From Oceanobacillus sp. HTM 045 (GTDB taxonomy: Bacteria; Pseudomonadota; Alphaproteobacteria; Rhodobacterales; Rhodobacteraceae): DNA of 64,000 nucleotides. The position numbers and the translations under genes were made by a program. The stretch covers positions 1 through 64,000 of the forward strand of contig WNWL01000004.1 of the NCBI GenBank assembly GCA_009733745.1, read 5' to 3'. Every line of letters begins with the position of its first letter. The first letter of the stretch is position 1. The notes beneath the pieces are model-generated. The model was not told the origin of the DNA. It was given only the letters and a program-made list of their open reading frames with translations, and did no database searches. Shown piece after piece: positions 1,779-47,192 of this stretch.

Positions 1779-1930
1779 GGGACACGACCGGCCCTGGACG
1801 GGCGTGGTGCTCCTGCGGGTCTGCTTGATTTATGCCCGCAAGCCCTCCCGCCCTCAGATCCCGTTGCAGCGTTGCAAAACGCCCGGCCCCGGGGAGGGCC
1901 AGTCGTGGCCCGCGCTGGCCGCGCGTGCTG
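1779..1930 (+). repeat. Copy 1 of a roughly 150 bp structured intergenic repeat (RIME/REP-like)
   Basis: Core is GGGACACGNCCGGCCCTGGACGGGCGTGGTGCT...TGATTTATNCCCGCA...TTGCAGCGTTGCAAAACGCCCGGCCCCGGGGAGGGCC...CGTGGCCCGCGCT.GCCGCGCGTGC. Hairpins: CGCCCGG/CCGGGCG and GCGCG/CGCGC. Lies between the TerB stop and the RnfD-like gene start. Confidence 0.8.
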
Positions 1931-1971
1931 CGGCTGACCGGGGTGCCCTGAACGGCCCCCCGCCGGAAAAA

Positions 1972-2385
1972 TCACATCCGCTGGTGACGCGCCCGCGCCC
2001 CGCGCTCGATGGCGGCGGCGGCGAGGCGGCCGACGCGGAGGTCGTGGCGCAGCATCTCGAGGAAGCGCAGCTCCGTCATCGCCACCGACCCGTCCGCCGC
2101 GGCGACGTCGCAGGCCAGCGCGTAGGCCGTCTCGCGCAGGTGGTCGGGCAGGGCGGCGTTGACGAGGCCGATCAGCGCATCGAGCCCGTCCTCCTCGGTG
2201 AAGAGGTCGGCGACCATGGCCGAGACCTGCTGCACCCGGTCGAGGTCGTAGCCCTCGAACACCGGCAGCAGCTCCACGATGGCGGAGATGGACAGCAGTT
2301 CCTGATCGTCCATGTCCTCGTCGGCGGCGGAGGTGGCGATCATCACGGCAACAAGCGCGTCCTGCGCGCTCAGAACGGTGCTCAT
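1972..2385 (-). CDS. TerB-like tellurite-resistance family protein
   Basis: 137 aa acidic protein with layout typical of the TerB domain (PF05099-like). RBS AGGGACAG upstream of the ATG at 2385. Confidence 0.7.
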   Translation of the reverse strand: MSTVLSAQDALVAVMIATSAADEDMDDQELLSISAIVELLPVFEGYDLDRVQQVSAMVADLFTEEDGLDALIGLVNAALPDHLRETAYALACDVAAADGSVAMTELRFLEMLRHDLRVGRLAAAAIERGARARHQRM

Positions 2386-2551
2386 GCTCGACTGTCCCTG
2401 CTCTCTTCGGTTGCGGCGGACATTATGATCTGGGATGCCGGTCTACAAGGGTGGACGGAGGCGGTCGTGCCGCTTCGCGTCCATCCGGCGCCCGGATCGA
2501 GCTCCAAAGACCCGCGCAGGCCGCCCACGCGGCTGCGAAACCCCGAAAACC

Positions 2552-3652
2552 CTAGCCCCCGCTCTCCCCACGCCGCCATGCGGCGGGCGACAGGCCCGTC
2601 GCCTTCTTGAAGGCGCGGCTGAAGGCGGCCTCGGAGGCGTAGCCGACCTCGTAGGCGACCTCGCCGATCCGGGCCCTGCCGTCGGCGAGACGGCGGGCGG
2701 CGAGTTGGATGCGCCACTGCGTCAGGTATTGCATCGGCGCGAGGCCGACATGGTGGGCGAAGCGTTCCGCCAGCACGGTGCGCGAGGCGGCGGTGGCCTC
2801 GGCGAGATCGGCCAGCGACCAGGCCCGCGCGGGCTCCGAGTGGAGCGCCGCCAGCGCCCGCGCCGTCACCGGGTCGGCCAGCCCTGCCAGCCAGCCGCCG
2901 GAGACCCCTTCCAGCGCGATATGCCGGCGGATCGCCTCGACGAACATCAGCTCGGCCAGCCCCAGCCGCACGGAGGCCCCGCCCGCGCCGCCTCCCGCGC
3001 TCGCGCCCCGCGCCTCCGCCAGCGTCAGTTCCACCAGCCTGCCGATCAGGTCGTCGCCGCCCTCGCGGCGGATCACCAGCATCCGCGGGAGGTGCAGGAG
3101 CAGCGGGTTGAACGGCCCCGCGTCGCAGCCGAGAAAGCCGCAGATAACCCGCGTCGGCGGCGCCCCGCCGCCCCCTTCCGGGATCACGAAGGGCAACTGT
3201 CCGGAGGCCAACTCGCGGAAGAAGGCCATCGTGCCATCGTAGTCGAACTCCGGCGGCGTGTCGTGGGCAGTGCCCATCCGGTAGCCGTCGCCCTGCGGGA
3301 AGACGACGATATCCCCCTCGCGGTAGGCAACCGGCTCTCCCCCCGGCACCGAGGCCACGCCAGCCCCCTCGGTGATGACGTGGTAGGACATCATGTGCCG
3401 CGACCCCGGCAGCAGGATGTCGCGGTAATGGTCGGTATGCGGGATGTCGACGCAATAGGGCTGGCTGGCGTCGATCAGGAAGAAGGTCGCCGCGGTCAGG
3501 CGCACGGTGCGGAGCACGTCCGACAGCGGATCGACGGCCAGTTGCGTGCCCGGCGGCGGCGGTTCGCCGGACTCGGGGGGCGCCCCAGACTCCGCCACTG
3601 ACCCGGACCCTCGGGCAGGACTCCCGGACGCTGCGTCATGGCCCTCCGTCAT
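2552..3652 (-). CDS. AraC-family transcriptional regulator with N-terminal cupin/AraC-binding-like domain
   Basis: N-terminal LSDVLRTVRLTAATFFLIDASQPY (AraC_binding_2-like) and C-terminal HTH_AraC (..LADLAEATAASRTVLAERFAHHVGLAPMQYLTQWRIQLAARRL..SEAAFSRAFKKATGLSP). Confidence 0.8.
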   Translation of the reverse strand: MTEGHDAASGSPARGSGSVAESGAPPESGEPPPPGTQLAVDPLSDVLRTVRLTAATFFLIDASQPYCVDIPHTDHYRDILLPGSRHMMSYHVITEGAGVASVPGGEPVAYREGDIVVFPQGDGYRMGTAHDTPPEFDYDGTMAFFRELASGQLPFVIPEGGGGAPPTRVICGFLGCDAGPFNPLLLHLPRMLVIRREGGDDLIGRLVELTLAEARGASAGGGAGGASVRLGLAELMFVEAIRRHIALEGVSGGWLAGLADPVTARALAALHSEPARAWSLADLAEATAASRTVLAERFAHHVGLAPMQYLTQWRIQLAARRLADGRARIGEVAYEVGYASEAAFSRAFKKATGLSPAAWRRGESGG

Positions 3653-3708
3653 GGGCCGAAGATACCCTCCGGGGCATGGATTTTCCAGCGACCAGGGGGA
3701 TTTGAGCC

Positions 3709-3981
3709 ATGTTGAAGGGGCTGTCTGTATCGGTACGGAAGGCGGTATCCGGGGCGGTCTGCGCCGGAGCCCTGCTCGGCGGCTGCACGTCGCAGGAGGA
3801 TGCCGAGGAATGGCTCAATCTGCTCGTCGCGATGGTCAATGGCGGTCTGGTGGATGACTACGACGGCGGCCCGCCGAAGACGATCGAGAACCGCGGCGGC
3901 GGGGATGGTGGCGACACGGGCTCCCCAGCCGGAGCATCGTCCGGCGCTGCCTCCGGCTCGCCGGGCGCAGGCGATACCTGA
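3709..3981 (+). CDS. Small putative lipoprotein with low-complexity Gly/Asp-rich tail
   Basis: [26 protein letters not shown]..., i.e. a signal peptide with lipobox LLGGC. AGGGGGA sits about 13 nt upstream of the ATG. The C-terminal region is low complexity, so confidence is modest. Confidence 0.4.
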
Positions 3982-4126
3982 CAAGGCGGCATTCCGGCCC
4001 CCAAAACCCGCCCGGAAGCCCGGTAAACGGCCCTCCCTCCCTTCCCGCCCTCGCAGTGGCCCGTTGACCGCAACGGGCCACGCGCCTATGACGCGCGCGT
4101 CTCAACACCTCGAAAGGACCGAGAAA

Positions 4127-5725: not shown

Positions 5726-5766
5726 GCGGGCTGGCGGGTCACGGGATTCCGCTCCGGGGATTCCGC

Positions 5767-6024
5767 TCAGAGAATGATGTCGTCGAAGGGAGGCAGGTCC
5801 GACGGGTCGGCCTCCCCGACATCCGGCGGCATCTCCAGCTCCTCCGGGTCCAGCTCGCCGAAACCGGGCGCGGGCGGGCTCAGGTCGAGCGTCAAGCCCG
5901 GCGAGTAGTGGAACTCCGGCTCCGGCTCCTCCGGCAGCACGAACTCGAACGGGCTTTCGTTCAGGCCCCAGGTCGGCTTGATCCGCACCGTGAGGCCGGT
6001 CTCGATCGGGAACTCCTCTTCCAT
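5767..6024 (-). CDS. Small acidic hypothetical protein (85 aa, MEEEFPIETGL...PPFDDIIL)
   Basis: Internal ATG at 6024 preceded by AGGAAAGGA RBS. The longer track ORF start at 6090 has no RBS. The protein is Pro/Glu-rich. Confidence 0.5.
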   Translation of the reverse strand: MEEEFPIETGLTVRIKPTWGLNESPFEFVLPEEPEPEFHYSPGLTLDLSPPAPGFGELDPEELEMPPDVGEADPSDLPPFDDIIL

Positions 6025-6140
6025 CGGGTGATCCTTTCCTGTTTCGCGTCTGGCCCTCCCGGTACGCGGCGGGGCCCGCGCAGGTTTCATCCGTCCCGGC
6101 TTCTGTGGACGCAGGGCGGGCGGAGGCGTATCCTCAACGG

Positions 6141-6566: not shown

Positions 6567-6571
6567 GCCTC

Positions 6572-6922
6572 ATGCTCGACGTCCTGTTCTGGATCGCGCT
6601 GGTCGTGGCGCTGATCTCCGCCGTGCTGGGCAAGACCCTGCTCAACCTGATGGCCGAATACGTCAAGGCCCAGTACCCGGAGAGCTTCACCGGCCTCGCC
6701 GAGAAGGACCGCTCGCTGGTCAAGGGTTTCTCCAAGCCCGAGACCAAGGTTCGCCGCGTGCTCGCCTCGCGCCTGCTCTGGGGCTCGCTCCCGCCGCCGC
6801 TCGACAGCGACGAGCAGATCGAGCGGATGCGCGGCCACTGGCGGATCCTGTTCCTCGGCACGGTCGTTGGCTGCATCTGCGTGATCGCCATCATCTTCGC
6901 CCGCGTGCCCGCCGCGGGGTGA
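6572..6922 (+). CDS. Small membrane protein (2 predicted TM helices)
   Basis: AAGGAGA RBS directly upstream. Hydrophobic N- and C-terminal helices (MLDVLFWIALVVALISAVLG.. and ..LGTVVGCICVIAIIFARV). Confidence 0.5.
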   Translation: MLDVLFWIALVVALISAVLGKTLLNLMAEYVKAQYPESFTGLAEKDRSLVKGFSKPETKVRRVLASRLLWGSLPPPLDSDEQIERMRGHWRILFLGTVVGCICVIAIIFARVPAAG

Positions 6923-6937
6923 GTTGGCCCGCCCCGG

Positions 6938-7087
6938 CACGCGCGGCTAGCGCGGGCCACGTCCGGCCCTTGCCCCGGCCGGGCGTTTCAGGACGTTGCA
7001 AGGGAATCTGAATGCAGGAGGGGTCGCTGCCATAAACCAAGCAAATCCCGAGGTGCACCACGCCCGTCCAGGGCCGGACGTGTCCCT
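6938..7087 (-). repeat. Copy 2 of the structured intergenic repeat, in inverted orientation
   Basis: Reverse complement reads GGGACACGTCCGGCCCTGGACGGGCGTGGTGCACCTCGGGATTTGCTTGGTTTATGGCAGCG...TTGCAACGTCCTGAAACGCCCGGCCGGGGCAAGGGCCGGACGTGGCCCGCGCTAGCCGCGCGTGC. Lies between convergent genes 6572..6922(+) and chaC-like(-). Confidence 0.8.
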
Positions 7088-7284
7088 ACGCGTCGACCTC
7101 GAAAGTCAGCCGGGAAAGTACGTCGGGGAAATCCGGCCGAAACCCCCATTTCACGGCTGGCGGTGACTTCCGGCGCTCTCGGCAGCAACGGTGACATCGG
7201 CGCCGGAAAGTGAAACAGCACCCGCTGAATGACATTTCGGGCGCGGGGACATGACATTCTCGGAGCCCGTGCCAACCCGGCCAA

Positions 7285-7974
7285 TCAACCCAGCAGTTCG
7301 CGCGCGACGAGCCGTTGCAGGCGGTCCAGCATCGGGTCGTCGATCCCGACCTCCCGACAATGCAGCCATGTCTCCAGCAGGTACTCCGCGCTCGGCCCCG
7401 TGGCGCCGCACGCCCGCGCGATGTTGCGCGCCAGCGTCTCGTCGTCGAGATGCCCAGCGTAGCGCGGCGCCTGCCGATTTGCCACGAAAGTCAATGCGTT
7501 AAGCGGCCCTTGGTCGGTATCGCAGGTGACGAAACGCGGCGCGTAGGCAAGCCCGCGCATCTCGCGCCACCAGACAGGGGTCAGCCGCTCCGCCAGCCCG
7601 TCGCCGCCCGCGAGGCGGAAGCATACCCCGGTGCAGTCCCCGCCTGCGTCCAGCGCCAGCATCATGCCGGGATTTTCGCGGCTGCCGCGGTAGCGCCACT
7701 GCCATAGGCAGAACCGGCGGTGCCAGCCCTCCAGCCGGGCCAGCCGGCGCTCGGCGTAGTCCATCTCCGGGCGCCACATCAGCGAACCGTAGCCGAACAC
7801 CCAGAGGTCGCCCCCGCCATGAAGTTTTTCATGCGTTTCAAGGGTTTCGGTCATCGCCGCGGCGACGACATTCTCGTCCGCCGACGGCTGTGCGCTCTCG
7901 TCGTCCACCACCGGGGCCGGGTGGCGCGCGCGGATCAGGTCATGGGTTAGGGTGACATTTTCAGGCAAGTCCAT
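7285..7974 (-). CDS. ChaC-like gamma-glutamylcyclotransferase family protein
   Basis: Contains LWVFGYGSLMWRPEMDY, the GGCT/ChaC signature. The real start could be the internal M (MTETLETHEKLHGGGDLWVFGYG..). Confidence 0.75.
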   Translation of the reverse strand: MDLPENVTLTHDLIRARHPAPVVDDESAQPSADENVVAAAMTETLETHEKLHGGGDLWVFGYGSLMWRPEMDYAERRLARLEGWHRRFCLWQWRYRGSRENPGMMLALDAGGDCTGVCFRLAGGDGLAERLTPVWWREMRGLAYAPRFVTCDTDQGPLNALTFVANRQAPRYAGHLDDETLARNIARACGATGPSAEYLLETWLHCREVGIDDPMLDRLQRLVARELLG

Positions 7975-8585: not shown

Positions 8586-8660
8586 TGGTGGGCGCGGCTG
8601 GGATTGAACCAGCGACCCCTACGATGTCAACGTAGTGCTCTCCCACTGAGCTACGCGCCC
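8586..8660 (-). tRNA. tRNA-Val (anticodon GAC)
   Basis: Reverse complement folds as a canonical 75 nt cloverleaf: GGGCGCGTAGCTCAGTGGGAGAGCACTACGTTGACATCGTAGGGGTCGCTGGTTCAATCCCAGCCGCGCCCACCA. Anticodon stem CTACG/CGTAG, loop TTGACAT, CCA encoded. Confidence 0.9.
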
Positions 8661-9650: not shown

Positions 9651-9750
9651 TTCGCGCGGCCGATCCGCGGCCTGCTTCGTTTTCCGGTTCTCCCGCTTTC
9701 GATCGAAGGTCCGCTCAGGGCGGAGCCCGGCCGGTCCAACCGGTGCGGGC

Positions 9751-9778
9751 AAAAAAAAGGGGCCGCACAAGGCGGCCC
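9751..9778 (-). terminator. Intrinsic terminator (minus strand): GGGCCGCC-TTGT-GCGGCCCC followed by T8
   Basis: Plus strand reads aaaaaaaaggggccgcacaaggcggccc. On the minus strand this is a perfect GC hairpin followed by eight U. It lies about 240 nt downstream of the dinB stop. Confidence 0.5.
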
Positions 9779-9893
9779 AAGTCTAAGGGAGGAAACGCCC
9801 AGGAAGGGCGGCAACGCCGAAGCGCTGCTGGATTGAGATTATGTGTGCGCCGCAACAAAGGCAATGGTGCAAAGCGAAAAAATCTTCCATTCC

Positions 9894-11277: not shown

Positions 11278-11804
11278 GCCCGGAATATCGCGCCGGGCGG
11301 GGCTGCGGGCAATGGGTGGATTATGGGGGTGAAAACGCGGTTGCAAGGTTGCAACCTCTGCAAGTTACTGAAAATACTGATAAAAAGTGTTAACGGGGGC
11401 CGGATGGCATGATCCGGCGCGCTAATGCTCGCTTGAGAACCCTGAATTAACTCGGGCCGCTGGTAAGCGTACACTTTCTTCGTGGAGGGTCAGCCCGCAG
11501 GTGGACTTTCGCGGCTTTAAGCAGCGGTTCAACATCGTACTCCATTCGGCGCAGCACTCGCCGGTCTATCGGGTATGGAAGGGCTATTGGCGCGCCCTGC
11601 GGCCTGAGAACAAACACGGTCTGTTCTCCAGCTTGTGGTAGATCGCTGGACGCGGTATACAAAAAGTTGAGCCGGGCTGCTTGTGGCCCGGCTCTAGTGC
11701 AGCCGCTGCAATGAGCGACCCTATCCAAGGCCATGTGTCCCATAAAGAGGACTCGCCGTCAACGTCTCATGGCAGCCCGACAGCGCCTAAGGAGGGCGTG
11801 CCGA

Positions 11805-12554
11805 ATGCAATATGAGATGAAACTGATCCAGCACGACGTGCAGGGAGGCGTGGTCCAGCAGCGGGCTACAGACGGCTACATCAACGCCACGGCGATGTGC
11901 CGGGCCGCCGGGAAGATGTGGGGCCATTACCGCGAGAACGCGGCAACGAGGGCCTTCTTGGCGGCCTTGGCGACCGATATCGGAAATCCGATATCGGAGC
12001 TTGTGCAGTCTGTAAAAGGAGGCGACCCAAGGCTTCAGGGGACTTGGGTTCATCCTCAGGTCGCAGTGAACCTAGCGCAGTGGTTGTCGCCAGAGTTTGC
12101 CGTCAAGGTGACCAAGTGGGTTCACGATTGGCTTAGTGGTCGCGGTGCAGAGGCAAGTTACAGTTACCACCTGCGGCGCTACACAGCTAATGTTTCCAAT
12201 ATTCCTTACGGTCATTTTTCGATCCTACAAGAGATGATGATCGGCCTGATAGGGCCGATGGAGTCACGAGGATATTTACTCCCAGAGAATATGCTGCCAG
12301 ACATCTCGCAGGGTCGGATGTTCTGTAGGTTTTTGCGGGAAGAGCATGGCCTCGATACTGATCGTCTGCCGAAGTACCGGCATGAGTTCGAGGATGGTCG
12401 CGTCGTATCAGCAAACGCCTACCCTAACGCGCTACTCCCTGCGTTCCGGCAGCACTTTTTCGAGGTTTGGATTCCGGAGCGAGCCGAAGTCTACTTCAAG
12501 AAGCGTGATGCCAAGGCTCTAGAGTATTTGCCTTATCTGCTTCCCGCTGCATAA
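11805..12554 (+). CDS. KilA-N domain protein (249 aa) with uncharacterised C-terminal domain
   Basis: N-terminus LIQHDVQGGVVQQRATDGYINATAMCRAAGKMWGHYRENAATRAFLAALATDIGNPISELVQSVKGGDPRLQGTWVHPQVAVNLAQWLSPEFAVKVTKWV matches the KilA-N/APSES-type DNA-binding fold. Strong RBS AAGGAGGG 7 nt upstream of the ATG. The gene and its 500 bp upstream region are visibly lower in GC than their surroundings. Confidence 0.75.
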   Translation: MQYEMKLIQHDVQGGVVQQRATDGYINATAMCRAAGKMWGHYRENAATRAFLAALATDIGNPISELVQSVKGGDPRLQGTWVHPQVAVNLAQWLSPEFAVKVTKWVHDWLSGRGAEASYSYHLRRYTANVSNIPYGHFSILQEMMIGLIGPMESRGYLLPENMLPDISQGRMFCRFLREEHGLDTDRLPKYRHEFEDGRVVSANAYPNALLPAFRQHFFEVWIPERAEVYFKKRDAKALEYLPYLLPAA

Positions 12555-12589
12555 GGTGCCTGAGGCTCCGGCTGAGTGCGGGAGCCTCG

Positions 12590-12702
12590 CATTTCTTTCC
12601 CAACCCCTAGCTCCCGCACTCCGATCCACTTGCAGCATTGCAGAACGCCCGGCCCGGGGGAGGGCCGGGCGTGGCCCGGGCTGGTCGCCCGGGCTGCGGA
12701 TG
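12590..12702 (+). repeat. Copy 3 of the structured intergenic repeat (5' portion diverged)
   Basis: ..CTTGCAGCATTGCAGAACGCCCGGCCCGGGGGAGGGCCGGGCGTGGCCCGGGCTGGTCGCCCGGGC.. Lies between convergent KilA-N(+) and ParB-like(-) genes. Confidence 0.7.
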
Positions 12703-12753
12703 GTCGGGGCGAGCATTCCGCAGGCCGCGCCTTCTGGAGGGCGGTCCAGAAGC

Positions 12754-13683
12754 TCAATCCACTGGCGCGAAGAGCCTGTCGACCGCTTCGAAGACGTGGT
12801 CCATCAGGTCGCTGTGCGCGTCCCTGCCGGTGAAGTGCAGGCACCAGCCGTCGCGGGTGCGTTCGCGCCGGACGGTCAGGGTGTGGCGGACCTTCGCGAC
12901 GCGCCGGGGGCGGGGCGTCGGCTCGCCCCAGCGCGGCTCCCTTATGGTCTCTCCCTTCGGCAGGTCTTCCGCTTCGCGGAGGATCGGCTGGATCAGTGCC
13001 ATCTGGTGATCGTGGTCCTGTATCGACGACTCCTCCAGCGCGGCGCGGAAGACATGGGTGAAACCCTTGCGGCAGGCGTCGGCGACGCGGAGCGCCATCT
13101 GCTGGGACATCTTCTCCGGCGTGGTGAGCCAGCCGTCGAGGTCTTCCGCGAGCCGGGCGAGCTGGCGGATCCGGCGGCGCTTGTACTTGTCCGCCGCCGG
13201 AAACAGCTTCTCCACCGCCTCCTCGATGTTGGCGAATACCTCGTGGCGGACGGCCTGCATGGCGGCGTGGCCCTTTTCCCAGGGGGAGAGTTCGGCGCGG
13301 ATCTCGTTTTCCTCGATCATCGCGGCCAGCGCCTCGGCGGTGCTGGCGGGTGTGCGCACGAGGGCGGGGATGGTGGCGTAGCGGTCCTGCCCGGTCTGCG
13401 CGTGGAGGTCGCGGACGACGCAGAAGCGGCGGTAGCCGGAGATCAGGCCGTATTGCACCGGGGGCCGCGGCTCCGCGAGGCGGTAGAGTTCCACCGGCAT
13501 CCGCACGCCGCTGGCGGCGATGGAGGCCTGCAGCTCGTCCATCTGCTCCTGCACGAGGCCGGTGCGGTCGCGGTCGAGCGCGCCGGGGTCGATCTCCGCG
13601 AGGGGGACGTGGAGGAGGGTCGCGGTATCGTCCGGCGTTCCGGTGGGGGTTTCGGTGGGCGTTTCGGTGAGGGTGTGCGTCAT
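12754..13683 (-). CDS. ParB/Sulfiredoxin-fold (ParB N-terminal nuclease-like domain) protein, 309 aa
   Basis: Start MTHTLTETPTETPTGTPDD.. (ATG at 13683). The ParB N-domain region is LLHVPLAEIDPGALDRDRTGLVQEQMDELQASIAASGVRMPVELYRL...YGLISGYRRFCVVRDL. The C-terminal roughly 150 aa are unassigned. The track ORF start 13890 is an Arg-rich over-extension. Confidence 0.7.
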   Translation of the reverse strand: MTHTLTETPTETPTGTPDDTATLLHVPLAEIDPGALDRDRTGLVQEQMDELQASIAASGVRMPVELYRLAEPRPPVQYGLISGYRRFCVVRDLHAQTGQDRYATIPALVRTPASTAEALAAMIEENEIRAELSPWEKGHAAMQAVRHEVFANIEEAVEKLFPAADKYKRRRIRQLARLAEDLDGWLTTPEKMSQQMALRVADACRKGFTHVFRAALEESSIQDHDHQMALIQPILREAEDLPKGETIREPRWGEPTPRPRRVAKVRHTLTVRRERTRDGWCLHFTGRDAHSDLMDHVFEAVDRLFAPVD

Positions 13684-13925
13684 GGCGGGTCTCCTGCGCT
13701 GGGTGCCGGGGGGGCGGCTGGGGGCGGTCGGGGGCAGGGGAGAGAATCGCCCGGTCCCGCGGGCGTTGCGCCTTCGGGCGAGGAGCGCGCGGTTGAGAAC
13801 GCGAGACTTGCATTCTCCACCACCACTCCTTGCAGGGCGTTGACTGTCCAAAGTATGCAGGCGGCGGGGGCATCTTCCCATCGCAGCCATCCGGCGGTCG
13901 CGCGGTCACACAATCAGGTGGTCAC

Positions 13926-27331: not shown

Positions 27332-28474
27332 TCAGTCGCGCAGCCGGGCGATGTCGCCGAGCAGGCCCTGGGTCCCGTTGTGGACCGTGAGCCGCTCGAC
27401 CTTGCCGGCGATGGCCTCCAGAGCCTCCAGCTCCTTCAGCCTCAGCATCACCGGGTTCTCGGCCATCACCTTCGCCGTGTTCAGGAGCGAACGGGTTGCG
27501 TTCGTCTCCTCGCGGCGGCGGATGACGTTGGCCTCGGCCTGCTTCTCCGCCGCGACGACCTGGTTCAGGATCTCGCGCATCTCGCCCGGCAGGATCACGT
27601 CCTTGAGCGCGATCTCGCCGACCTCGATGCCGATCCCGGCCATCTCGGCACGGACCTTCTCGGCCGCCTCCGTATCGACAGTGACCTTCTCCTCGAGGAG
27701 CGCGTCGAGCGTCCGCTGGCCGACCGTCTTGCGGAAGGCGAGCTGGAGCGCGCGGTGCAGCGCCTCGTCGAAGTCCTTCACCGCCGACGCGGCGGTCACG
27801 GGGTCGGTCACGCGGAACGCTGCGGCGATGTTGACCCGGATCGTCACGCGATCCTTCGTCAGCACCTCCTGGCCCGTCACGTCATGCACCCGCCAGCGGG
27901 TGTCCACGACGCGCACGGTGACCGGCCGCCCGAGGTTCCAGAACAGGTGGACCCCCGGCGCGAGCACGCCCATCTCGACGCCCCCGACGGTCAGCAGGCC
28001 GACCTGGCCCGGATCGACGGTGGCCTTCGAGACCAGCGACGCCCACGCGCCCCGCTCGATCGCGGTGCGGAGCTCCTCCGGCACCGCGAGCCGCACGTCC
28101 ATCGGGAAGCGCCGGATCTCCCACGGACCGGCATCGGTCCAGTAGACCCCGCGCTCCTTCGGCCCGCGGGCGAGCGCGTGGAGCGCGCCGTCGCGGAACA
28201 GCGCGGCGACCTCGCCCTCGCCCGCCTCGAGCACGGTGAAGTGCCCGGCGGCGAGGTCCGGCCGCTCGCGCAGGATCGCGCGCAGGTAGGGCGTGGTGAC
28301 GCCCGGGCTCACGAGATCGTGCCGTTCGACCTTCAGGTTCCGGCCGCGCGCGGGCAGGCGGTGCCAGCCCGGGCCGAGGATCGCGTGGATCCGGCCCTTG
28401 CACAGCACGATCGCGCGCTCGTTGGTGTCGACGAGGACCCGCGTGGTCCGCGTCAGGAGATCGAACAGCATCAT
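27332..28474 (-). CDS. SPFH/Band-7 domain protein (380 aa)
   Basis: Start MMLFDLLTRTTRVLVDTNERAIVL. SPFH core plus C-terminal coiled coil (..AAEKQAEANVIRRREETNATRSLLNTAKVMAENPVMLRLKELEALE..). The track ORF start 28858 is an over-extension. Confidence 0.8.
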   Translation of the reverse strand: MMLFDLLTRTTRVLVDTNERAIVLCKGRIHAILGPGWHRLPARGRNLKVERHDLVSPGVTTPYLRAILRERPDLAAGHFTVLEAGEGEVAALFRDGALHALARGPKERGVYWTDAGPWEIRRFPMDVRLAVPEELRTAIERGAWASLVSKATVDPGQVGLLTVGGVEMGVLAPGVHLFWNLGRPVTVRVVDTRWRVHDVTGQEVLTKDRVTIRVNIAAAFRVTDPVTAASAVKDFDEALHRALQLAFRKTVGQRTLDALLEEKVTVDTEAAEKVRAEMAGIGIEVGEIALKDVILPGEMREILNQVVAAEKQAEANVIRRREETNATRSLLNTAKVMAENPVMLRLKELEALEAIAGKVERLTVHNGTQGLLGDIARLRD

Positions 28475-28802
28475 GACCTTCACACTCCGGAGCCTTTCCC
28501 TCCGGCCTCTCATTTTGCCTGCCCGGTCCATCCGGGAAGGCGGACAGGAAGCTCCAGGGCCGGCGACCCGGGCCGGCGGCGGGCCTTGGCGAGCGGGCGT
28601 CGGGGAGCCCGGGCGGGACGCAAACGTCCGGCCCGGGCCCGCCTCCGCCATCATCCGCGGCGCGGGCCGCCGGCGCGGGGCATCGCCGGTTCCCGGCGCG
28701 TTGCCCGAGGGCGCCGCGCCGGTCGCCGGCTCCGCAGCCGGCCCTGAAACCCCAGTTCTGTGACCACCTTGTAAGGGTGGGACCGCATGGAAAGCGGCGG
28801 CT

Positions 28803-28873
28803 TGGAAGGGAGGATTCGAACCTCCGACGAACGGTATCGCGACCGGCGCTCTGACCAACTGAGCTACATCCAG
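28803..28873 (-). pseudogene. tRNA-like sequence 1 (probable tRNA remnant or chimera)
   Basis: Reverse complement reads ..CTGGATGTAGCTCAGTTGGTCAGAGCGCCGGTCGCGATACCGTTCGTCGGAGGTTCGAATCCTCCCTTCCAAG. D-arm and T-arm are canonical (GGAGG-TTCGAAT-CCTCC, Arg/Pro-like). The acceptor stem cannot pair and the anticodon arm is only 4 bp with a 6-nt loop. Confidence 0.35.
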
Positions 28874-28948
28874 TGGTGAAGATGACAGGAGTCGAACCTG
28901 CGGCCTCCGGGCGGCCTGCCCGGCGCTCTTCCTCTGAGCTACATCCCC
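28874..28948 (-). tRNA. tRNA-like sequence 2, Ala(GGC)-like with aberrant anticodon loop (possible pseudogene)
   Basis: Reverse complement reads GGGGATGTAGCTCAGAGGAAGAGCGCCGGGCAGGCCGCCCGGAGGCCGCAGGTTCGACTCCTGTCATCTTCACCA. It is 75 nt, all four arms pair, and G3:U70 (the Ala identity pair) is present with CCA encoded. The anticodon loop CAGGCCG has A33 instead of U33 and C37, which is non-canonical. It directly abuts tRNA-like 1 with no spacer. Confidence 0.45.
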
Positions 28949-29220
28949 GACCCCGCCCTGCCGACCGGCCAGCGCACACGGGAGCCGCAGGGCGGTCCCG
29001 CGCCGGGGGAGATTCGGGAACTCCGCCCGCCGTGGCTCGGAAGACGTCCGAGCGGGGAGGCGCCGTATTGGTCGAATCGGGGGCGCGGTGCAACAGCTTG
29101 TCGCAGGTGTTGCGCTCCGGGATCATGTATGTGGCAAAAAGAACACATTCCGGTCGGCGGCGGACGGGCTATCGTGTGGCCAGCCGGGATCACGCCGGCA
29201 CTGACATGGGAGTTTTTCAG

Positions 29221-29646
29221 ATGCGCAAGTTCTTCACCGGCCTCGCCGCCGCCGCCCTCCTCGCCGCCCCGGCCTTCGCCGGCGAGACCCCGGCGCCGGA
29301 GGGGGCGAAGGTCTATTTCATCGCGCCGGCCGACGGGGCGACGGTTTCCGGCTCGGTCACGGTGCAGTTCGGCCTCGCCGGCATGGGCGTGGCCCCTGCC
29401 GGGACCGAGCGGGAGAATACCGGGCACCACCACATCTTCGTCGACCGCGCGCCGTTCGGCGAGGCCGATGCGGCGGACCCGATCCCCGCCGATGACAACC
29501 ACATCCATTTCGGCGGCGGGCAGACCGAGGTGACGCTCGACCTCGCGCCGGGCGAGCACACGCTTCAGCTCGTGCTGGGCGACATGAACCACATCCCGCA
29601 CGACCCGCCGGTGGTGTCGGAAGTGATCACCATCACGGTCGAGTAA
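29221..29646 (+). CDS. DUF4399-family periplasmic protein
   Basis: MRKFFTGLAAAALLAAPAFAGETPAPEGAKVYFIAPADGATVSGSVTVQFGLAGMGVAPAGTERENTGHHHIFVD.., a signal peptide plus conserved DUF4399 blocks. GGGAG RBS. Confidence 0.7.
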   Translation: MRKFFTGLAAAALLAAPAFAGETPAPEGAKVYFIAPADGATVSGSVTVQFGLAGMGVAPAGTERENTGHHHIFVDRAPFGEADAADPIPADDNHIHFGGGQTEVTLDLAPGEHTLQLVLGDMNHIPHDPPVVSEVITITVE

Positions 29647-35145: not shown

Positions 35146-35269
35146 AATCGCCGTTGGGGACAGACGACGGAAGCCGAATCGTGCATCGTTACAGAAGCAG
35201 CGTTCTTCAAGAAGGGGGCGTGACCGGCGGCATGGGGTGCGCCGGGAATTGAAGGAAGGAGTACCAGGT

Positions 35270-35572
35270 ATGAAATCCATTCTGACGGCCGCGACGGTCG
35301 CGACAGGACTTTTCCTTGCAGCCGTGCCGACCGCCGGCATGGCGCAGAACATGGAGAATGCGCCGATCATGAGCTGGGGCCAGTTCTCTGACCAGCTCGA
35401 CGCCCGCAATATCGGGAGCTTCACCGGCGTTTCCAACGGCTTCGTCGCCTTCACCCTGTGCGACGGGCGCTGGTTCCGGGTCCGCGGCACGGTGGCGAAC
35501 GTGCAGAACGCGCTGCGTCAGCGCGGCTATGCGCGCGCCGAATGCGTCGGCGGCGGCACCACGGATCGCTGA
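35270..35572 (+). CDS. Small secreted protein, paralog 1 (100 aa)
   Basis: MKSILTAATVATGLFLAAVPTAGMAQNMENAPIMSWGQFSDQLDARNIGSFTGVSNGFVAFTLCDGRWFRVRGTVANVQNALRQRGYARAEC.. RBS AGGAAGGA. Confidence 0.55.
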   Translation: MKSILTAATVATGLFLAAVPTAGMAQNMENAPIMSWGQFSDQLDARNIGSFTGVSNGFVAFTLCDGRWFRVRGTVANVQNALRQRGYARAECVGGGTTDR

Positions 35573-35607
35573 GGACGGACATGCGCGGGCCGGGAGGAAA
35601 CGTGGGA

Positions 35608-35919
35608 ATGCGTGGCGTGATCGCGAAGCTTGCAGCGTTGCAAGTTGCTGTTTTTCTTGCGTTTTCCAGCCCGATCCTGTCGGGCCCGGCCTACGCGCAG
35701 GACCTTGAGAACGCCCCGGTGATCAGCTGGGGCCAGTTTCTCGGGCAGCTCGACAGCCGGCAGCTCAAGAACTTCACCGGGGTGAGCGGCGGCTATGTCG
35801 CCTTCAACCTGTGCAACGGGCGCTGGTTCCGGGTCCGCGCCTCGGTCGCGGACGTGGTCAACGCGCTGGATTCGCGCAGTTATCGCTCGGCCTGCCCGGG
35901 CGGCGTGGGGAACCGCTAG
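35608..35919 (+). CDS. Small secreted protein, paralog 2 (103 aa)
   Basis: MRGVIAKLAALQVAVFLAFSSPILSGPAYAQDLENAPVISWGQFLGQLDSRQLKNFTGVSGGYVAFNLCNGRWFRVRASVADVVNALDSRSYRSAC.. About 55% identical to paralog 1 over the mature region, with conserved Cys pair. RBS GGGAGGA. Confidence 0.55.
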   Translation: MRGVIAKLAALQVAVFLAFSSPILSGPAYAQDLENAPVISWGQFLGQLDSRQLKNFTGVSGGYVAFNLCNGRWFRVRASVADVVNALDSRSYRSACPGGVGNR

Positions 35920-42275: not shown

Positions 42276-42523
42276 GGCCGCGGCAGGAACCCCGCCCGGA
42301 ATGACCGCGCTTCGCCATTCCGAAAGTTTTCTGCGGAAATCTGCCCCGAAGCCGTCGGAATCGCCGGTTGGCCCCAAAAAAAACAGGCCCGAATTGGCCA
42401 TGACGTTGCGTCGGAGGCGGTTTTCGGCCCCGGTCAGCGCTTGCGCGGCGCGTTTGCCCGTGTCCTATATCCTATATGTGAGAAGGCGCACCCAGATGCG
42501 CCCCGACACCGGGAGGGTGGTAC

Positions 42524-44410: not shown

Positions 44411-44589
44411 GGCGCGTTCCCGCGCGGTGGAAGGCGCGCACGCCTGCGTTGGGGCAGGCGGCGCGCATTCCTTCGGAGGTTGCGCCGATTTGTGAAAGTT
44501 GGGCGACAGTGCGGGGGAATCGGTTGCTTTAACTTTGTCTCAAGTCTTTCATGGAGATGGTGGGTACGGCGGATGGTCCGGGGGCAAAG

Positions 44590-44940
44590 ATGTCGGAATT
44601 CGTGCAGCCTGAGATTGCGGCAGCCCTTGAGGTCGCGCGGCGGAACGCCAAGCGCGAGGGTTCGCGCCACACCATCGTCGCCGGGGAACGCCAGCACCGC
44701 GTGATCGAGCTCACGAAGGACGGGTTCGTGATCGAGGCCGACGGCCGCCCGCCGCTGCGCGGCTATGTCGATCTCTGCCTCGGCGAGGACCGGATCTCGC
44801 GCCGCCTCGTCGTCTGCGCCTGGGCGGAGGACGGGTTGGTCGGCTACGAGTTCAAGCGCTCCTCCCCCGACAAGGAAAAGACCCCGGCGGACTATGTCGA
44901 GGCGGGCCACGCCGGCCTGCTGGCGGCGCCGCGGCCCTGA
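44590..44940 (+). CDS. Hypothetical protein (116 aa)
   Basis: MSEFVQPEIAAALEVARRNAKREGSRHTIVAGERQHRVIELTKDGFVIEADGRPPLRGYVDLCLGEDRISRRLVVCAWAEDGLVGYEFKR.. GGGGG lies 5 nt upstream. Lower-GC leader upstream. Confidence 0.4.
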   Translation: MSEFVQPEIAAALEVARRNAKREGSRHTIVAGERQHRVIELTKDGFVIEADGRPPLRGYVDLCLGEDRISRRLVVCAWAEDGLVGYEFKRSSPDKEKTPADYVEAGHAGLLAAPRP

Positions 44941-45042
44941 TTTCTTCCTGATTGCCGGTCAGTGCGCCGCGTCTGTGGGTGGGCCTGTGGCGGTGCAGCA
45001 CCCGCGGCGCGCGGCAGGCGTCTGCGCATGTGCTGAGCGCGG

Positions 45043-45196
45043 AGGGACACGTCCGGCCCTGGTCGGGCGTGGTGCTAGCTAGGGTCTGCATGATTTATCC
45101 CCGCACCCCCTCCCGACCTACGAGCCATTTGCAGCGTCAGAGAACGCCCGGCCCCGGGGAGGGCCGGGCGTGGCCCGGGCTAGTCGCCCGGGCCGT
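45043..45196 (+). repeat. Copy 4 of the structured intergenic repeat
   Basis: GGGACACGTCCGGCCCTGGTCGGGCGTGGTGCTAGCTAGGGTCTGCATGATTTATCCCCGCACCCCCTCCCGACC...TTGCAGCGTCAGAGAACGCCCGGCCCCGGGGAGGGCCGGGCGTGGCCCGGGCTAGTCGCCCGGGC. Lies between the convergent hypothetical(+) and cobA(-) genes. Confidence 0.8.
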
Positions 45197-45279
45197 GGCT
45201 GGTGCTGTGCGAGAACGAGAATCTGACGATCTTGGGAAGGGAAGGGCTGTCGTGCCCTTCGGGACCGCAAGGCCCCGAT

Positions 45280-46164
45280 TCAGCCCTCGGCGGCGTCGTC
45301 CTGCGCTCGGGTGCCGAGGGGGTCCAGGCTGCGGGGCGGTTCGCCCGCCATCTGGCCGGCCCAGTCTAGCGCCTGGCGGAGCAGCACGTTGCGGCCGACG
45401 ACGATCAGCGCGGGGGGCTGCATCCCCGCCGCCTCGGCATCCGCCGCGGCGGTGGCGAGGCTCGTTTCCAGCACCCGCTGGGTCGGCAGCGAGGCGTCGG
45501 TGACGATGGCGACCGGCTCCGAGCCCGCGCGCCCCGCTGCGATCATCGCGGCGGCGATCTCGCCGAGATGCTTCATGCCCATGTAGATCACCACCACGGG
45601 CGAGGCCTTCGCGACCGCCTCCCAGTCCACCGTGACCGGCGCGAGGCCGCGCTTGTCGTGGCCGGTGACGAAGGTGACCGACTGGTTCACGTCGCGGTGG
45701 GTGACGGGGATGCCCGCATGGGCGAGCCCGCCGACGCCGGAGGAGATGCCGGGCACGACGCGGAACGGGATGCCGGCCTCGACCAGCCCCAGCGCCTCCT
45801 CGCCGCCGCGGCCGAACACGAACGGATCGCCGCCCTTGAGCCGCAGCACGCGGTTGCCGGCGCGGGCCAGTTCGACCAGGTGCAGGGTGATGTCGCGCTG
45901 CTTCGGCGAGGCCTTGCCGCCGCGCTTGCCGGAATGGATCAGCCGCGCGCCGGGCCGCGCCCACGACAGGATCCGCGGATCGACCAGCGCGTCGTGCACC
46001 ACCACGTCGGCCTCGCGCAGGCCGTGCAGCGCGTTGAGTGTCAGCAGTCCCGGGTCGCCCGGACCGGCGCCCGTCAGCCAGACCCAGCCCGGCCGGAACT
46101 CGGGCCAGTCATGGCCCTCGGCGGCGGGGAGGCGCGGGGCGATATCGGGGAACTTCGCGGTCAT
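45280..46164 (-). CDS. cobA: Uroporphyrinogen-III C-methyltransferase
   Basis: GWVWLTGAGPGDPGLLTLNALHGLREADVVVHDALV...GGDPFVFGRGGEE, the SUMT/CobA signature. Confidence 0.9.
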   Translation of the reverse strand: MTAKFPDIAPRLPAAEGHDWPEFRPGWVWLTGAGPGDPGLLTLNALHGLREADVVVHDALVDPRILSWARPGARLIHSGKRGGKASPKQRDITLHLVELARAGNRVLRLKGGDPFVFGRGGEEALGLVEAGIPFRVVPGISSGVGGLAHAGIPVTHRDVNQSVTFVTGHDKRGLAPVTVDWEAVAKASPVVVIYMGMKHLGEIAAAMIAAGRAGSEPVAIVTDASLPTQRVLETSLATAAADAEAAGMQPPALIVVGRNVLLRQALDWAGQMAGEPPRSLDPLGTRAQDDAAEG

Positions 46165-46289
46165 CTTTCCCAGATAGGGTGGGTGCCGGAAAAAGTAAAT
46201 CGCGGAATGTGTTTTATCTGGAATACCGGTTACCTGGTGTAGAAAAGTTGAACTTGATCCGTTCGCGGCGAGAACCGAAAACCGGCGCC

Positions 46290-47030
46290 ATGCTGCTGAA
46301 ACCCATGGTGCTGATCCTCGCCGGTCATGCCGACGACACCGAGGAGATCGCGGCGCGGCTCGCCGCGACCAAGCGGGTTCGGGTGATGATCTCCGAGCCC
46401 GGCAAGCCGCGCGGCATTCCCGCCGACGTGACCCGCGGCCCCTTCGCCAGCACCAAGGCGATGGCGGAGATGCTGGAATGGGACCAGATCCGCGCGGTGG
46501 TCGATGTCAGCGATCCCTACGATCCCGACCTGCCGGCGATGGCGGCGGATGCCTGCCAGACCAAGGGCGTGCCGCGGCTGCGCTACATGCGGCCCGGCTG
46601 GGACGCGGTGGACGCTGCGGGATGCACCCGCGCGCCGGACCTGACGGAGGCGGCTCGGCGGCTGCCGCTGACCGGTCGGGCCTTTCTCGCGATCCGCCCG
46701 GTCGACGCGGAGGCGTTCGAGGTGCGCCGCGACGTCTGGTACTGCCTGCGCATCCACCGGCCGATGGGCGGGCGGTTCCCGCTCCGTCGCGGCGACTACG
46801 CGCTGGGCGCGCCGCCGTTCCGCAAGGCGCATGAGCGGCAGGTGCTGGTCGACTACCGGATCGGCGCGGTGGTGGCGCAGGACACCGGCCTCGGCGAGGG
46901 CGTGCCGCTGCTCGACGCGGCGCGGGAACTGGAGATCCCGGTGACGCTGGTCGACCGCCCCCAACAGCCGCGCGGCAAGGTGGTGGACATGCCGCAGGAC
47001 GTTGTGGACTGGGTGCTGCAGCGGGTTTGA
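46290..47030 (+). CDS. cobK: Precorrin-6A reductase
   Basis: Start MLLKPMVLILAGHADDTEEIAARL.. This is the CobK/CbiJ family. Divergent from cobA across a 125 bp AT-richer spacer. Confidence 0.8.
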   Translation: MLLKPMVLILAGHADDTEEIAARLAATKRVRVMISEPGKPRGIPADVTRGPFASTKAMAEMLEWDQIRAVVDVSDPYDPDLPAMAADACQTKGVPRLRYMRPGWDAVDAAGCTRAPDLTEAARRLPLTGRAFLAIRPVDAEAFEVRRDVWYCLRIHRPMGGRFPLRRGDYALGAPPFRKAHERQVLVDYRIGAVVAQDTGLGEGVPLLDAARELEIPVTLVDRPQQPRGKVVDMPQDVVDWVLQRV

Positions 47031-47049
47031 GGGGAGTGCGGAGGGCCGC

Positions 47050-47192
47050 GACCGGCCCTGGACGGGCGTGGTGCTCCCAACGGGCTGCGTGATTTATCCC
47101 AGCACCCACTCCGACCCAACGATCCCCTTGCAGCGTCGCAATACGCCCGGCCCCGGGGAGGGCCGGACGTGGCCCGCGCTAGCCGCGCGTGC
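47050..47192 (+). repeat. Copy 5 of the structured intergenic repeat
   Basis: GACCGGCCCTGGACGGGCGTGGTGCTCCCAACGGGCTGCGTGATTTATCCCAGCACCCACTCCGACC...TTGCAGCGTCGCAATACGCCCGGCCCCGGGGAGGGCCGGACGTGGCCCGCGCTAGCCGCGCGTGC. Lies between convergent cobK(+) and soxG(-). Confidence 0.8.

What the first reader, a model, noticed from the sequence alone, without database searches (positions are those of the whole stretch)
1779..47192. Five copies of a roughly 150-bp structured intergenic repeat, each sitting in a gap between convergent genes
Copies are at 1779-1930(+), 6938-7087(-), 12590-12702(+), 45043-45196(+) and 47050-47192(+). They share a conserved order of modules. First comes a 5' hairpin CG(T/A)CC-GGCCCT-GG(A/T)CG followed by GGGCGTGGTGC. 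Then an AT-rich TGATTTATCCC segment and a C-rich CCCTCCCG / CACTCCG tract, followed by TTGCAGCGT(T/C)GCAA. A perfect GC hairpin CGCCCGG-CCCCGGGGAGGG-CCGGGCG follows. A terminal hairpin GCGCG-CTAGC-CGCGC closes four of the five copies (copy 3 diverges at this end). Four copies lie strictly between convergently transcribed genes and the fifth (1779-1930) lies antisense within a divergent spacer, irrespective of their own orientation. That fits a role as bidirectional terminator or insulator elements, or as a mobile RIME/REP-like family. They generate the recurring pseudo-peptide TPGPGEG in four spurious track ORFs. The C-rich single-stranded tract (CCUCCC) also resembles the anti-SD-like loops of some alphaproteobacterial sRNAs, so these could be transcribed.
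Basis: seen in the sequence. Interest (0 to 1): 0.65.

Follow-up and report, generated by a model that had tools for sequence, protein, structure and literature searches.

The report
Dispersed palindromic intergenic repeat family
The five repeats are real copies of a hairpin-forming, REP/MITE-like repeat found in several Rhodobacterales genera; I found no description of it, it comes and goes between strains, and it mostly sits just past gene ends, so it is an ordinary kind of genomic passenger rather than a new biological system.

Summary
Five copies, and no others, are in the window (nhmmer E 1e-34 to 1e-52). Each copy is therefore one long hairpin (17-bp closing helix P1) with a variable ~100-nt apical region, followed by a small 3' hairpin (H3).

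Homologues occur in Oceanicella and Paroceanicella as long forms. Leisingera, Phaeobacter and Pontibrevibacter plasmids carry ~90-nt short forms; a weak Jannaschia match was also seen. Compensatory changes occur in P1 and H3. A covariance model built only from short forms recovers three window copies.

Within Leisingera caerulea the element is present or absent at otherwise collinear sites, once in frame inside xdhC. The inserted segment has no terminal inverted repeats at its ends and no clear target duplication.

Copies avoid divergent (promoter) gaps and occur in both orientations. In this genome they lack U-tracts. Rfam, phage collections and literature searches gave nothing. No transposase or RAYT gene is nearby.

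Best reading: a REP/REPIN/BIME-like non-autonomous mobile palindromic element, with 3'-end RNA effects only inferred. It is a new member of a known kind and of moderate interest.

The parts
1762..1945 (+). Copy w1, full long form. Leader about 1770-1778, P1 left arm 1779-1795, apical module 1796-1894, P1 right arm 1895-1911, H3 hairpin 1908-1928.
   Evidence: nhmmer E 1.5e-52; sequence; alignments A1/A2. It lies between two minus-strand genes (1972-2385 TerB-like, 640-1524 RnfD-like), antisense to both. The CM from short forms did not reach it at E<=1; it has one C.A mismatch in P1.
6920..7104 (-). Copy w2, full long form on the minus strand. P1 left arm 7086-7070, P1 right arm 6970-6954, H3 6957-6937.
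   Evidence: nhmmer E 1.8e-49; CM R1 41.7 bits, E 2.3e-6; sequence. Convergent gap between 6572-6922(+) (GC3 0.96) and ChaC-like 7285-7974(-).
12564..12711 (+). Copy w3, 5'-truncated. The left arm is missing; clear homology runs from about 12590-12611 onward. P1 right arm 12661-12677, H3 12674-12694.
   Evidence: nhmmer E 2.8e-34, matching profile positions 31-186 only; sequence. It abuts the stop of the KilA-N gene 11733-12554(+), which lies in a 53-60% GC patch. Convergent with 12754-13890(-).
45027..45208 (+). Copy w4, full long form. P1 left arm 45044-45060, P1 right arm 45160-45176, H3 45173-45193 (CGGGC/GCCCG variant).
   Evidence: nhmmer E 9.8e-52; CM R1 45.3 bits, E 4.1e-7; sequence. 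Convergent gap between 44551-44940(+) and the tetrapyrrole methylase gene 45280-46164(-).
47026..47209 (+). Copy w5, full long form with no conserved tail. P1 left arm 47043-47059, P1 right arm 47159-47175, H3 47172-47192.
   Evidence: nhmmer E 3.1e-51; CM R1 49.5 bits, E 5.4e-8; sequence. It starts at the stop codon of cobK-like 46038-47030(+) and converges with the GCV_T-domain gene 47248-47829(-), which lies next to sarcosine-oxidase subunit genes.

Best explanation
The five copies belong to a dispersed family of non-autonomous palindromic repeats of the REP/REPIN/BIME-MITE kind, found in several Rhodobacterales genera.

Anatomy (shown). A short purine-rich leader is followed by two inverted arms, each itself an imperfect palindrome. 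The arms pair into a 17-bp closing helix (P1). P1 encloses an apical region of variable length: about 30 nt in 'short' forms and about 100 nt in this genome's 'long' forms. A 7-8-bp hairpin (H3) follows and shares its GCCC foot with P1.

Dynamics (shown in relatives, inferred for this genome). The unit is gained or lost as a block of about 115-135 nt. That block has no inverted repeats at its extreme ends and no clear target-site duplication.

Mechanism (inferred). This argues for mobilisation in trans by an enzyme that acts on folded single-stranded hairpin DNA, in the style of HUH/Y1 enzymes, or for recombinational gain and loss. It argues against a DDE cut-and-paste transposase.

Location (shown). 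Copies persist just beyond gene 3' ends and inside operons, and never in divergent promoter gaps.

Effect on the host (inferred by analogy with REP, ERIC and Correia elements). When read through, the copy folds into a very stable stem-loop. That stem-loop would block 3' exonucleases, offer an RNase III substrate and hinder read-through into the converging gene.
For: Family and boundaries:
- Exactly five copies, E 1e-34 to 1e-52.
- Arms 88-96% identical, against 67% for the centre and background level for the tail.

Arms are inverted copies of one palindromic unit:
- On 11 long-form sequences from 4 genera, the long-range helix P1 is 91.5% paired, with 5 pairs changed on both sides, and 0-2 of 500 shuffles reach it.
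- Slid controls drop to 28-53% paired.
- The local hairpins score lower, at 80-83%.
- H3 is 93% paired, with CGCGC/GCGCG swapped for CGGGC/GCCCG.

Short forms from Leisingera, Phaeobacter and Pontibrevibacter:
- They form a 27-bp hairpin plus H3, 7 pairs changed on both sides.
- CM R1, built only from these, finds w5, w4 and w2 (E 5e-8 to 2e-6) and the Oceanicella and Paroceanicella copies end to end.

Distribution is patchy:
- Three copies lie in 20 kb of Oceanicella, and copies occur on Paroceanicella plasmids.
- None were found in Limibaculum, Thermohalobaculum or three MAG cob loci.
- Copies are not at orthologous positions around the cob genes.

Gain or loss within L. caerulea:
- bhcD-bhcC: 132-nt indel between about 97%-identical alleles.
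- xdhC: 114-nt in-frame indel.
- A TRAP-transporter gap is filled in L. aquaemixtae and empty in L. caerulea and NJS201.

Context:
- In the window, by my own rough gene count, 4 of about 13 convergent gaps, 1 of about 27 tandem gaps and 0 of about 13 divergent gaps are occupied.
- Across all loci, none lies in a divergent gap, and both orientations occur in tandem gaps.
Against: - No mobilising gene was identified. No transposase or Y1 domain appears in any window gene scanned.
- E. coli RayT finds nothing in the window, in the fetched loci or on any Rhodobacterales plasmid. RAYTs are reported as rare in Alphaproteobacteria (PMC5581495).
- Genome-wide copy number in the source genome could not be measured.
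- Window copies are 19-27% diverged from each other, so there has been no recent burst.
- The arms are unusually conserved across genera (short forms 85-93% identical between Leisingera, Phaeobacter and Pontibrevibacter). This could instead reflect a host function, or plasmid exchange.
- The indel junctions are not clean enough to define the ends or the target.
- No transcript data exist for any RNA-level effect.
Confidence: 0.6

Rival explanations
1. Host-selected cis-acting RNA element. Each copy is kept because, in the 3' UTR or between cistrons, its hairpins stop read-through between convergent genes (a terminator or roadblock without a U-tract) and/or stabilise the upstream mRNA. Dispersal would then be secondary.
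For: - Four of five window copies and 8 of 10 long-form copies overall lie in convergent gaps; none anywhere lies in a divergent gap.
- Some low-GC relatives have H3 followed by a T-run: Leisingera GGGCGGTTTTTT, Phaeobacter TATTTCTT.
- Arms and H3 are conserved with compensatory changes, while the centre decays.
- G.U outnumbers A.C mismatches 10 to 4 on the element's own strand.
Against: - No window copy has a U-tract on either strand, while the genome does use canonical terminators.
- In tandem gaps the element is more often antisense than sense to the flanking genes (about 6-7 against 3; versus 28, 61, 62). A strand-specific RNA role is therefore unlikely.
- It is dispensable within a species.
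- It tolerates sitting inside a coding region.
- The 10:4 wobble bias is not significant.
Confidence: 0.2
2. Classical MITE: a deletion derivative of a DDE-transposase insertion sequence, moved by cut-and-paste through its terminal inverted repeats.
For: - The 17-nt arms look like terminal inverted repeats, and the size (90-185 bp) is in the MITE range.
- Filled and empty sites exist.
Against: - The conserved unit is asymmetric. H3 lies outside the right arm and a leader lies outside the left arm.
- The 132-nt block gained at bhcD-bhcC extends 32 nt and 20 nt beyond the hairpins. Its ends are not inverted repeats and there is no target duplication.
- No plasmid hit lies next to or under a transposase gene.
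- No transposase gene is in the window.
Confidence: 0.08
3. A family of independently transcribed small RNAs. P1 would present the apical region, with its C-rich tract, as a seed that pairs with ribosome-binding sites.
For: - Window copies carry CCCUCCC-like tracts in the apical region.
- In Leisingera L003 the element is antisense to both neighbours and ends in hairpin plus U6, like a stand-alone transcript.
Against: - No promoter-like site lies at or upstream of any window copy.
- The apical region is the least conserved part, at 67% within the genome and 41% between genera.
- The C-rich tract is absent from Oceanicella/Paroceanicella long forms and is base-paired in short forms.
- Rfam gives no match even at E<=1-10.
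- One copy lies inside a CDS.
Confidence: 0.07
4. DNA-level binding sites for a nucleoid or topology protein, as BIMEs bind gyrase, IHF and Pol I. The sites would be scattered to organise the chromosome at gene ends.
For: - Orientation independence.
- A conserved AT-rich GATTTATC motif in a 70% GC background, shared by the window, Oceanicella and Paroceanicella long forms.
Against: - The AT-rich motif is absent from short forms and from the L. thetidis long form. By eye it does not fit the IHF consensus.
- Copies are dispensable between strains.
- Nothing here tests protein binding.
Confidence: 0.05

Closest known systems
REP / REPIN (REP doublets forming hairpins) and E. coli BIMEs
   Same: - The unit is an imperfect palindrome preceded by a short conserved motif.
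- Two units in inverted orientation form one long hairpin with a spacer.
- Locations are extragenic, at gene 3' ends and inside operons, in both orientations.
- There are no terminal repeats at the ends of the moved block and no target duplication.
- Arm sequences co-vary as a set.
   Different: - No RAYT gene was found, and RAYTs are rare in Alphaproteobacteria (PMC5581495).
- An extra conserved hairpin (H3) lies outside the doublet.
- The spacer varies from 2 to about 75 nt and differs between lineages.
- The arms are conserved across genera, whereas REPs are usually species-specific (my own knowledge).
- Genome-wide copy number is unknown.
Correia elements (Neisseria) and ERIC/IRU (enterobacteria)
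   Same: - They are 100-200-bp hairpin-forming repeats.
- Short and long variants differ by an internal insertion.
- They are co-transcribed with neighbouring genes.
- Their long stems are RNase III or RNase E substrates (PMC10969869).
- Occasional intragenic copies occur.
   Different: - Correia has true terminal inverted repeats, a TA target duplication, and promoters and an IHF site.
- None of these is seen here.
[quoted passage not shown]
   Same: A dispersed repeat that carries a terminator-like hairpin. The Leisingera and Phaeobacter short forms end in H3 plus a T-run.
   Different: The window's copies have no U-tract. The two families share no sequence and belong to different phyla. The name and description of SPRITE are taken from PMC10969869.
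Rickettsia palindromic elements (RPE)
   Same: An alphaproteobacterial palindromic repeat that can sit in frame inside protein-coding genes. Here that is the 38-codon insert in Leisingera xdhC.
   Different: No in-frame copy is in the window, where all five are intergenic. No sequence comparison with RPEs was made. RPEs are AT-rich elements of reduced genomes (my own knowledge).
PATEs: IS200/IS605-derived palindrome-associated elements
   Same: - Subterminal hairpins lie 20-30 nt inside the real ends.
- There are no terminal inverted repeats and no target duplication.
- A TTAC abuts the left junction at two Leisingera sites. This is a lead only.
   Different: - No TnpA or TnpB gene was found nearby.
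- The two hairpins here are inverted relative to each other and pair with one another.
- The TTAC is not present at the filled xdhC junction.

Membership tests
REPIN / REP | The repeat unit is an imperfect palindrome of about 20-40 nt with a short conserved flanking motif. | tested here: met
   Left unit GGG(A/C)-CACGTCCGGC-CCTG-GACGGGCGTG. The right unit is its reverse complement with a longer tip. The local hairpins are 80-83% paired.
REPIN / REP | Two units in inverted orientation form one long hairpin. | tested here: met
   P1 has 17 bp, is 91.5% paired, has 5 pairs with compensatory changes, and beats the slid and shuffled controls. The short forms form a 27-bp hairpin.
REPIN / REP | Tens to hundreds of copies per genome, over-represented in extragenic space. 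| not testable with these tools
   There are five copies in 64 kb, all extragenic. The source genome is not retrievable and both genome-contig scans returned nothing. Leisingera plasmids carry only 1-3 copies per 100-250 kb.
REPIN / REP | A single-copy RAYT (Y1 transposase) gene in the same genome, itself flanked by the repeats. | tested here: inconclusive
   There is no RayT-like gene in the window or in any fetched locus, and none on any Rhodobacterales plasmid. No Y1 or transposase domain was found in about 50 window ORFs. The chromosomes of the relevant genomes could not be searched.
MITE (DDE-transposon derived) | Inverted repeats at the very ends of the mobile unit. | tested here: not met
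   The block gained at bhcD-bhcC starts 32 nt before the left arm and ends 20 nt after H3. Its ends are not complementary. H3 and the leader lie outside the arms in every copy.
MITE (DDE-transposon derived) | A target-site duplication of fixed length flanks the insertions. | tested here: not met
   No direct repeat is seen at the bhc, xdhC or TRAP junctions. The junctions are, however, blurred by nearby substitutions.
Intrinsic (Rho-independent) terminator | A GC-rich hairpin immediately followed by a U-tract. | tested here: not met
   The terminator scan finds none at any of the five copies on either strand. It does find canonical ones elsewhere, for example mmgR at 9778-9760 and 11694-11669. 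The feature is met only in some Leisingera and Phaeobacter short forms.
Any Rfam RNA family | A match to a curated covariance model. | tested here: not met
   No match at gathering score in the window. None at E<=10 over 44900-47400. None at E<=1 over six related loci.
Integron attC site | R''/R' core sites (RYYYAAC / GTTRRRY), the same orientation in an array, and a position next to intI. | tested here: not met
   By inspection the arms are GGGCNGCG.../...CGCNGCCC, with no GTTRRRY. Copies are scattered, in both orientations, among housekeeping genes. No integrase gene was found.

The most novel reading that the evidence does not exclude
The family may be a hairpin-DNA element mobilised, or maintained, by a partner that is neither a RAYT nor an IS200/IS605 TnpA. 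Candidates are an unrecognised HUH-type or recombinase-type protein, or a conserved host protein of Rhodobacterales. This would explain why the arm sequence is held at 85-93% identity across several genera. It would also explain why the apex of the hairpin accepts unrelated 70-100-nt inserts as 'cargo' and why the element can live in frame inside a gene. On this reading it would be a new mobilisation system for extragenic palindromes in a class where RAYTs are rare.
Probability: 0.2. Interest if true: 0.65.

Novelty: new member of a known kind. Interest (0 to 1): 0.4.

Why it matters
Extragenic palindromic repeats are well studied in Gammaproteobacteria but hardly at all in marine Rhodobacterales.

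A family that spans several genera gives a practical handle for three things:
- Annotation: it creates spurious ORFs carrying the TPGPGEG peptide, and some Phaeobacter records annotate a 'hypothetical protein' over it.
- Strain typing.
- The question of what mobilises such repeats where RAYTs are rare.

Three features of the family add interest. It is polymorphic within species. It carries a swappable apical module. It can sit in frame inside a gene.

For this window itself the finding is mainly housekeeping. It explains five odd intergenic stretches and four phantom ORFs. It does not point to a new regulatory system.

Tried and rejected
- Genome-wide census.
- Metagenome scan. The one scan returned a single contig whose match is a chance coding hit, the TPGPGEG motif in an alcohol-dehydrogenase-like gene.
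- Source genome. An identical CobM protein exists in the protein collection on a 657-kb NCBI contig. Neither it nor a window protein could be looked up.
- Rfam, at both gathering and permissive thresholds: nothing.
- Phage records and viral contigs: nothing.
- Literature searches for the sequence, for REPs or MITEs in Rhodobacterales or Roseobacter, and for intergenic repeats in Phaeobacter: nothing describing this family.
- RAYT search with E. coli RayT. The sequence was recalled from memory, then validated as NF047646 at 179 bits and as 100% identical to annotated rayT. It gave no Rhodobacterales or window hit. Pfam did not recognise RayT at E<=0.01, so the Pfam scans of window genes are a weak test for RAYTs.
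- Wobble-asymmetry test for RNA-level versus DNA-level selection: 10 G.U against 4 A.C, too few to decide.
- Folding z-scores are modest, from -1.9 to -3.2. Random 70% GC sequence also folds strongly, so energy alone is uninformative.
- IHF-site and promoter readings of the AT-rich GATTTATC motif were rejected by inspection and by the promoter scan.
- attC, oriT and ribozyme readings were considered and dropped for lack of any defining feature.

Full report
OBSERVATION

Reading the five stated intervals shows the same module order in each, and MAFFT aligns them at 76% mean column identity (A1). A profile built from that alignment finds exactly these five places in the 64-kb window. They are 1762-1945(+), 6920-7104(-), 12564-12711(+, matching only profile positions 31-186), 45027-45208(+) and 47026-47209(+). 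E-values run from 1.5e-52 to 2.8e-34, and the next hit has E 0.5. The repeat finder independently ranks the family as the window's largest repeat.

Full copies are 73-81% identical to each other. The divergence is uneven. The arms and hairpins are 85-96% identical, the central part 67%, and the 17 nt after the last hairpin 36%, which is roughly what unrelated sequence gives at this G+C content (my estimate). So the unit runs from about 9 nt before the first GGG to the end of the last hairpin.

The weak self-antisense hits led to the key point. The 5' arm GGGACACGTCCGGCCCT is the reverse complement of the 3' arm AGGGCCGGACGTGGCCC. Each arm is also an imperfect palindrome. RNAfold picks one fold or the other depending on the copy.

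The small terminal hairpin (H3) shares its GCCC foot with P1. H3 comes in two compensatory versions. CGCGC/GCGCG is in copies 1, 2 and 5; CGGGC/GCCCG is in copies 3 and 4.

CONTEXT IN THE WINDOW

The window has 69.8% G+C. Genes called by third-position G+C and Pfam are ordinary chromosomal housekeeping genes: class I lysyl-tRNA synthetase, ClpB, cobalamin synthesis, sarcosine oxidase, and others. No transposase was found.

Copies 2 to 5 lie in convergent gaps. For copy 2 this holds once the small gene 6572-6922(+) is recognised (GC3 0.96). It lies between two minus-strand genes and is antisense to both.

By my rough count the window has about 13 convergent, 13 divergent and 27 tandem gaps. Four of five copies in convergent gaps has a binomial probability of about 0.015 by my own calculation, and none is in a divergent gap.

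No copy carries a hairpin-plus-U-tract on either strand. The same scan does find canonical terminators elsewhere in the window.

Copy 3 lacks its left arm. It abuts the stop codon of a KilA-N gene that sits in a 53-60% G+C patch. The likely cause is that incoming foreign DNA cut the copy.

RELATIVES

The source genome could not be reached. CobM places the organism among Paracoccaceae-like Rhodobacterales, with nothing closer than 73% identity.

BLAST against plasmids found a full-length homologue on Paroceanicella profunda pD4M1A, again in a convergent gap, and another on pD4M1D. Using the Paroceanicella copy as query found about 60 plasmids of Leisingera, Phaeobacter, Jannaschia, Pontibrevibacter and Tritonibacter. 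In Leisingera, Phaeobacter and Pontibrevibacter the element is a short form of about 90 nt. The two arms are separated by only about 30 nt, followed by H3 and, in some copies, a T-run. The Jannaschia match is a longer, more diverged copy that model R1 detects only weakly, and the Tritonibacter hit was not inspected.

The cob locus of Oceanicella sp. SM1341 holds three long-form copies in 20 kb, one of them decayed, at positions not orthologous to those in the window. The cob loci of Limibaculum, Thermohalobaculum and three MAGs hold none.

A covariance model built only from seven short forms (A4, R1) recovers window copies 5, 4 and 2 end to end, with E 5e-8 to 2e-6. It also recovers the Oceanicella and Paroceanicella copies. 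Long and short forms are therefore one family, and the long forms carry an insert at the hairpin apex. A Leisingera thetidis copy carries a different apical insert.

STRUCTURE

On 11 long-form sequences P1 is 91.5% paired, with 5 of 17 pairs changed on both sides. At most 2 of 500 shuffles reach this, and slid registers give 28-53%. The local hairpins are 83% and 80% paired, and H3 is 93% paired.

On the short forms, P1 plus an inner helix make a 27-bp hairpin with a 6-nt bulge. It is 90% paired overall, with 7 pairs changed on both sides.

The arms are inverted copies of one palindromic unit, so columns co-vary four ways. This pattern is expected both for an RNA helix and for two DNA sites read by one protein. 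Covariation therefore cannot tell RNA from DNA. G.U against A.C mismatches (10 against 4) lean weakly toward the element's own strand.

No Rfam family matches.

MOBILITY

Megablast of three Leisingera sites together with their flanks shows filled and empty alleles.
- bhcD-bhcC has a 132-nt indel between L. caerulea strains that are otherwise about 97% identical.
- xdhC has a 114-nt indel within L. caerulea. It is in frame: 335 against 297 residues, with an open reading frame straight through the antisense element.
- A TRAP-transporter gap is filled in L. aquaemixtae and empty in L. caerulea and strain NJS201.

The 132-nt block starts 32 nt before the left arm and ends 20 nt after H3. Its ends are not inverted repeats and no target duplication is visible. 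A TTAC abuts the left junction at two sites, but not consistently.

In tandem gaps the element is found in both orientations, more often antisense.

INTERPRETATION

Anatomy, distribution and dynamics fit the REP/REPIN/BIME class best. That class is a non-autonomous palindromic repeat, tolerated at gene ends, probably handled as folded single-stranded DNA.

The defining partner of REPINs, a RAYT, was not found in the window, in the fetched loci or on any Rhodobacterales plasmid. RAYTs are reported as rare in Alphaproteobacteria (PMC5581495). Membership in that family is therefore open, and I claim only 'works like'.

A DDE-type MITE is disfavoured by the asymmetric ends and the lack of a target duplication. 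A canonical terminator is excluded for this genome. A U-tract-less roadblock or an mRNA-stabilising role stays possible by analogy with REP, ERIC and Correia elements (PMC10969869), but it is inferred, not shown. The sRNA idea has nothing in its favour beyond a C-rich tract that is not conserved.

NOVELTY

The literature searches that were run, Rfam, the phage records and one viral-contig pattern scan gave no description of this family. It looks like an undescribed member of a well-known kind. The points of some interest are:
- the cross-genus conservation of the arms;
- the swappable apical module;
- the in-frame xdhC copy;
- the absence, so far, of a recognisable mobiliser.

Noticed in passing
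window 9745-9816 (-): A clear mmgR/suhB small RNA (Rfam RF00519, 61.7 bits) with a canonical U-tract terminator. It lies in the convergent gap between the formylglutamate amidohydrolase gene and the DinB-like polymerase gene.
   Followed up: partly
window 11400-12600: A low-G+C patch (53-60% against 69.8% for the window) carries a KilA-N domain gene (11733-12554, +). It converges on a ParB_N-domain gene (12754-13890, -). It looks like foreign DNA, and it ends exactly where repeat copy 3 is truncated.
   Followed up: partly
window 35342-35530 and 35695-35883: A 189-nt direct repeat, 76% identical, with starts 353 nt apart. It overlaps small ORFs that have no Pfam match (35237-35572, 35458-35919).
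   Followed up: no
L020 367-462 / L014 1166-1261 (Leisingera plasmids), compared with L019: The short form of the repeat sits antisense and in frame inside xdhC. This gives a 335-residue allele with a 38-residue net insert, against a 297-residue allele in other L. caerulea strains. It resembles the in-frame Rickettsia palindromic elements.
   Followed up: partly
L007 12480-12580 and 3740-3800; L002 3140-3200: Oceanicella and Paroceanicella intergenic regions hold a second, unrelated repeat (...CTTCGCCACG...AAGCTGCGGGGGC...GCCCCC...), next to or near copies of the element. It was not seen in the window.
   Followed up: no
L017 1102-1260 (Leisingera thetidis plasmid pBMJM1_3): A long form whose roughly 70-nt apical insert is unrelated to the window's insert. 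The hairpin apex therefore seems to be a recurrent insertion point.
   Followed up: no
window 8589-8660 (-), 28801-28873 (-), 28877-28948 (-): Three tRNA genes, two of them adjacent. Long spurious ORFs overlap the pair, for example 27882-29126 and 28873-29646.
   Followed up: no
Phaeobacter inhibens ~70-kb plasmids (e.g. NZ_CP010711.1 35766-35849): Several public records annotate a 'hypothetical protein' over the repeat in the rfb locus. This is probably a spurious ORF created by the element.
   Followed up: no
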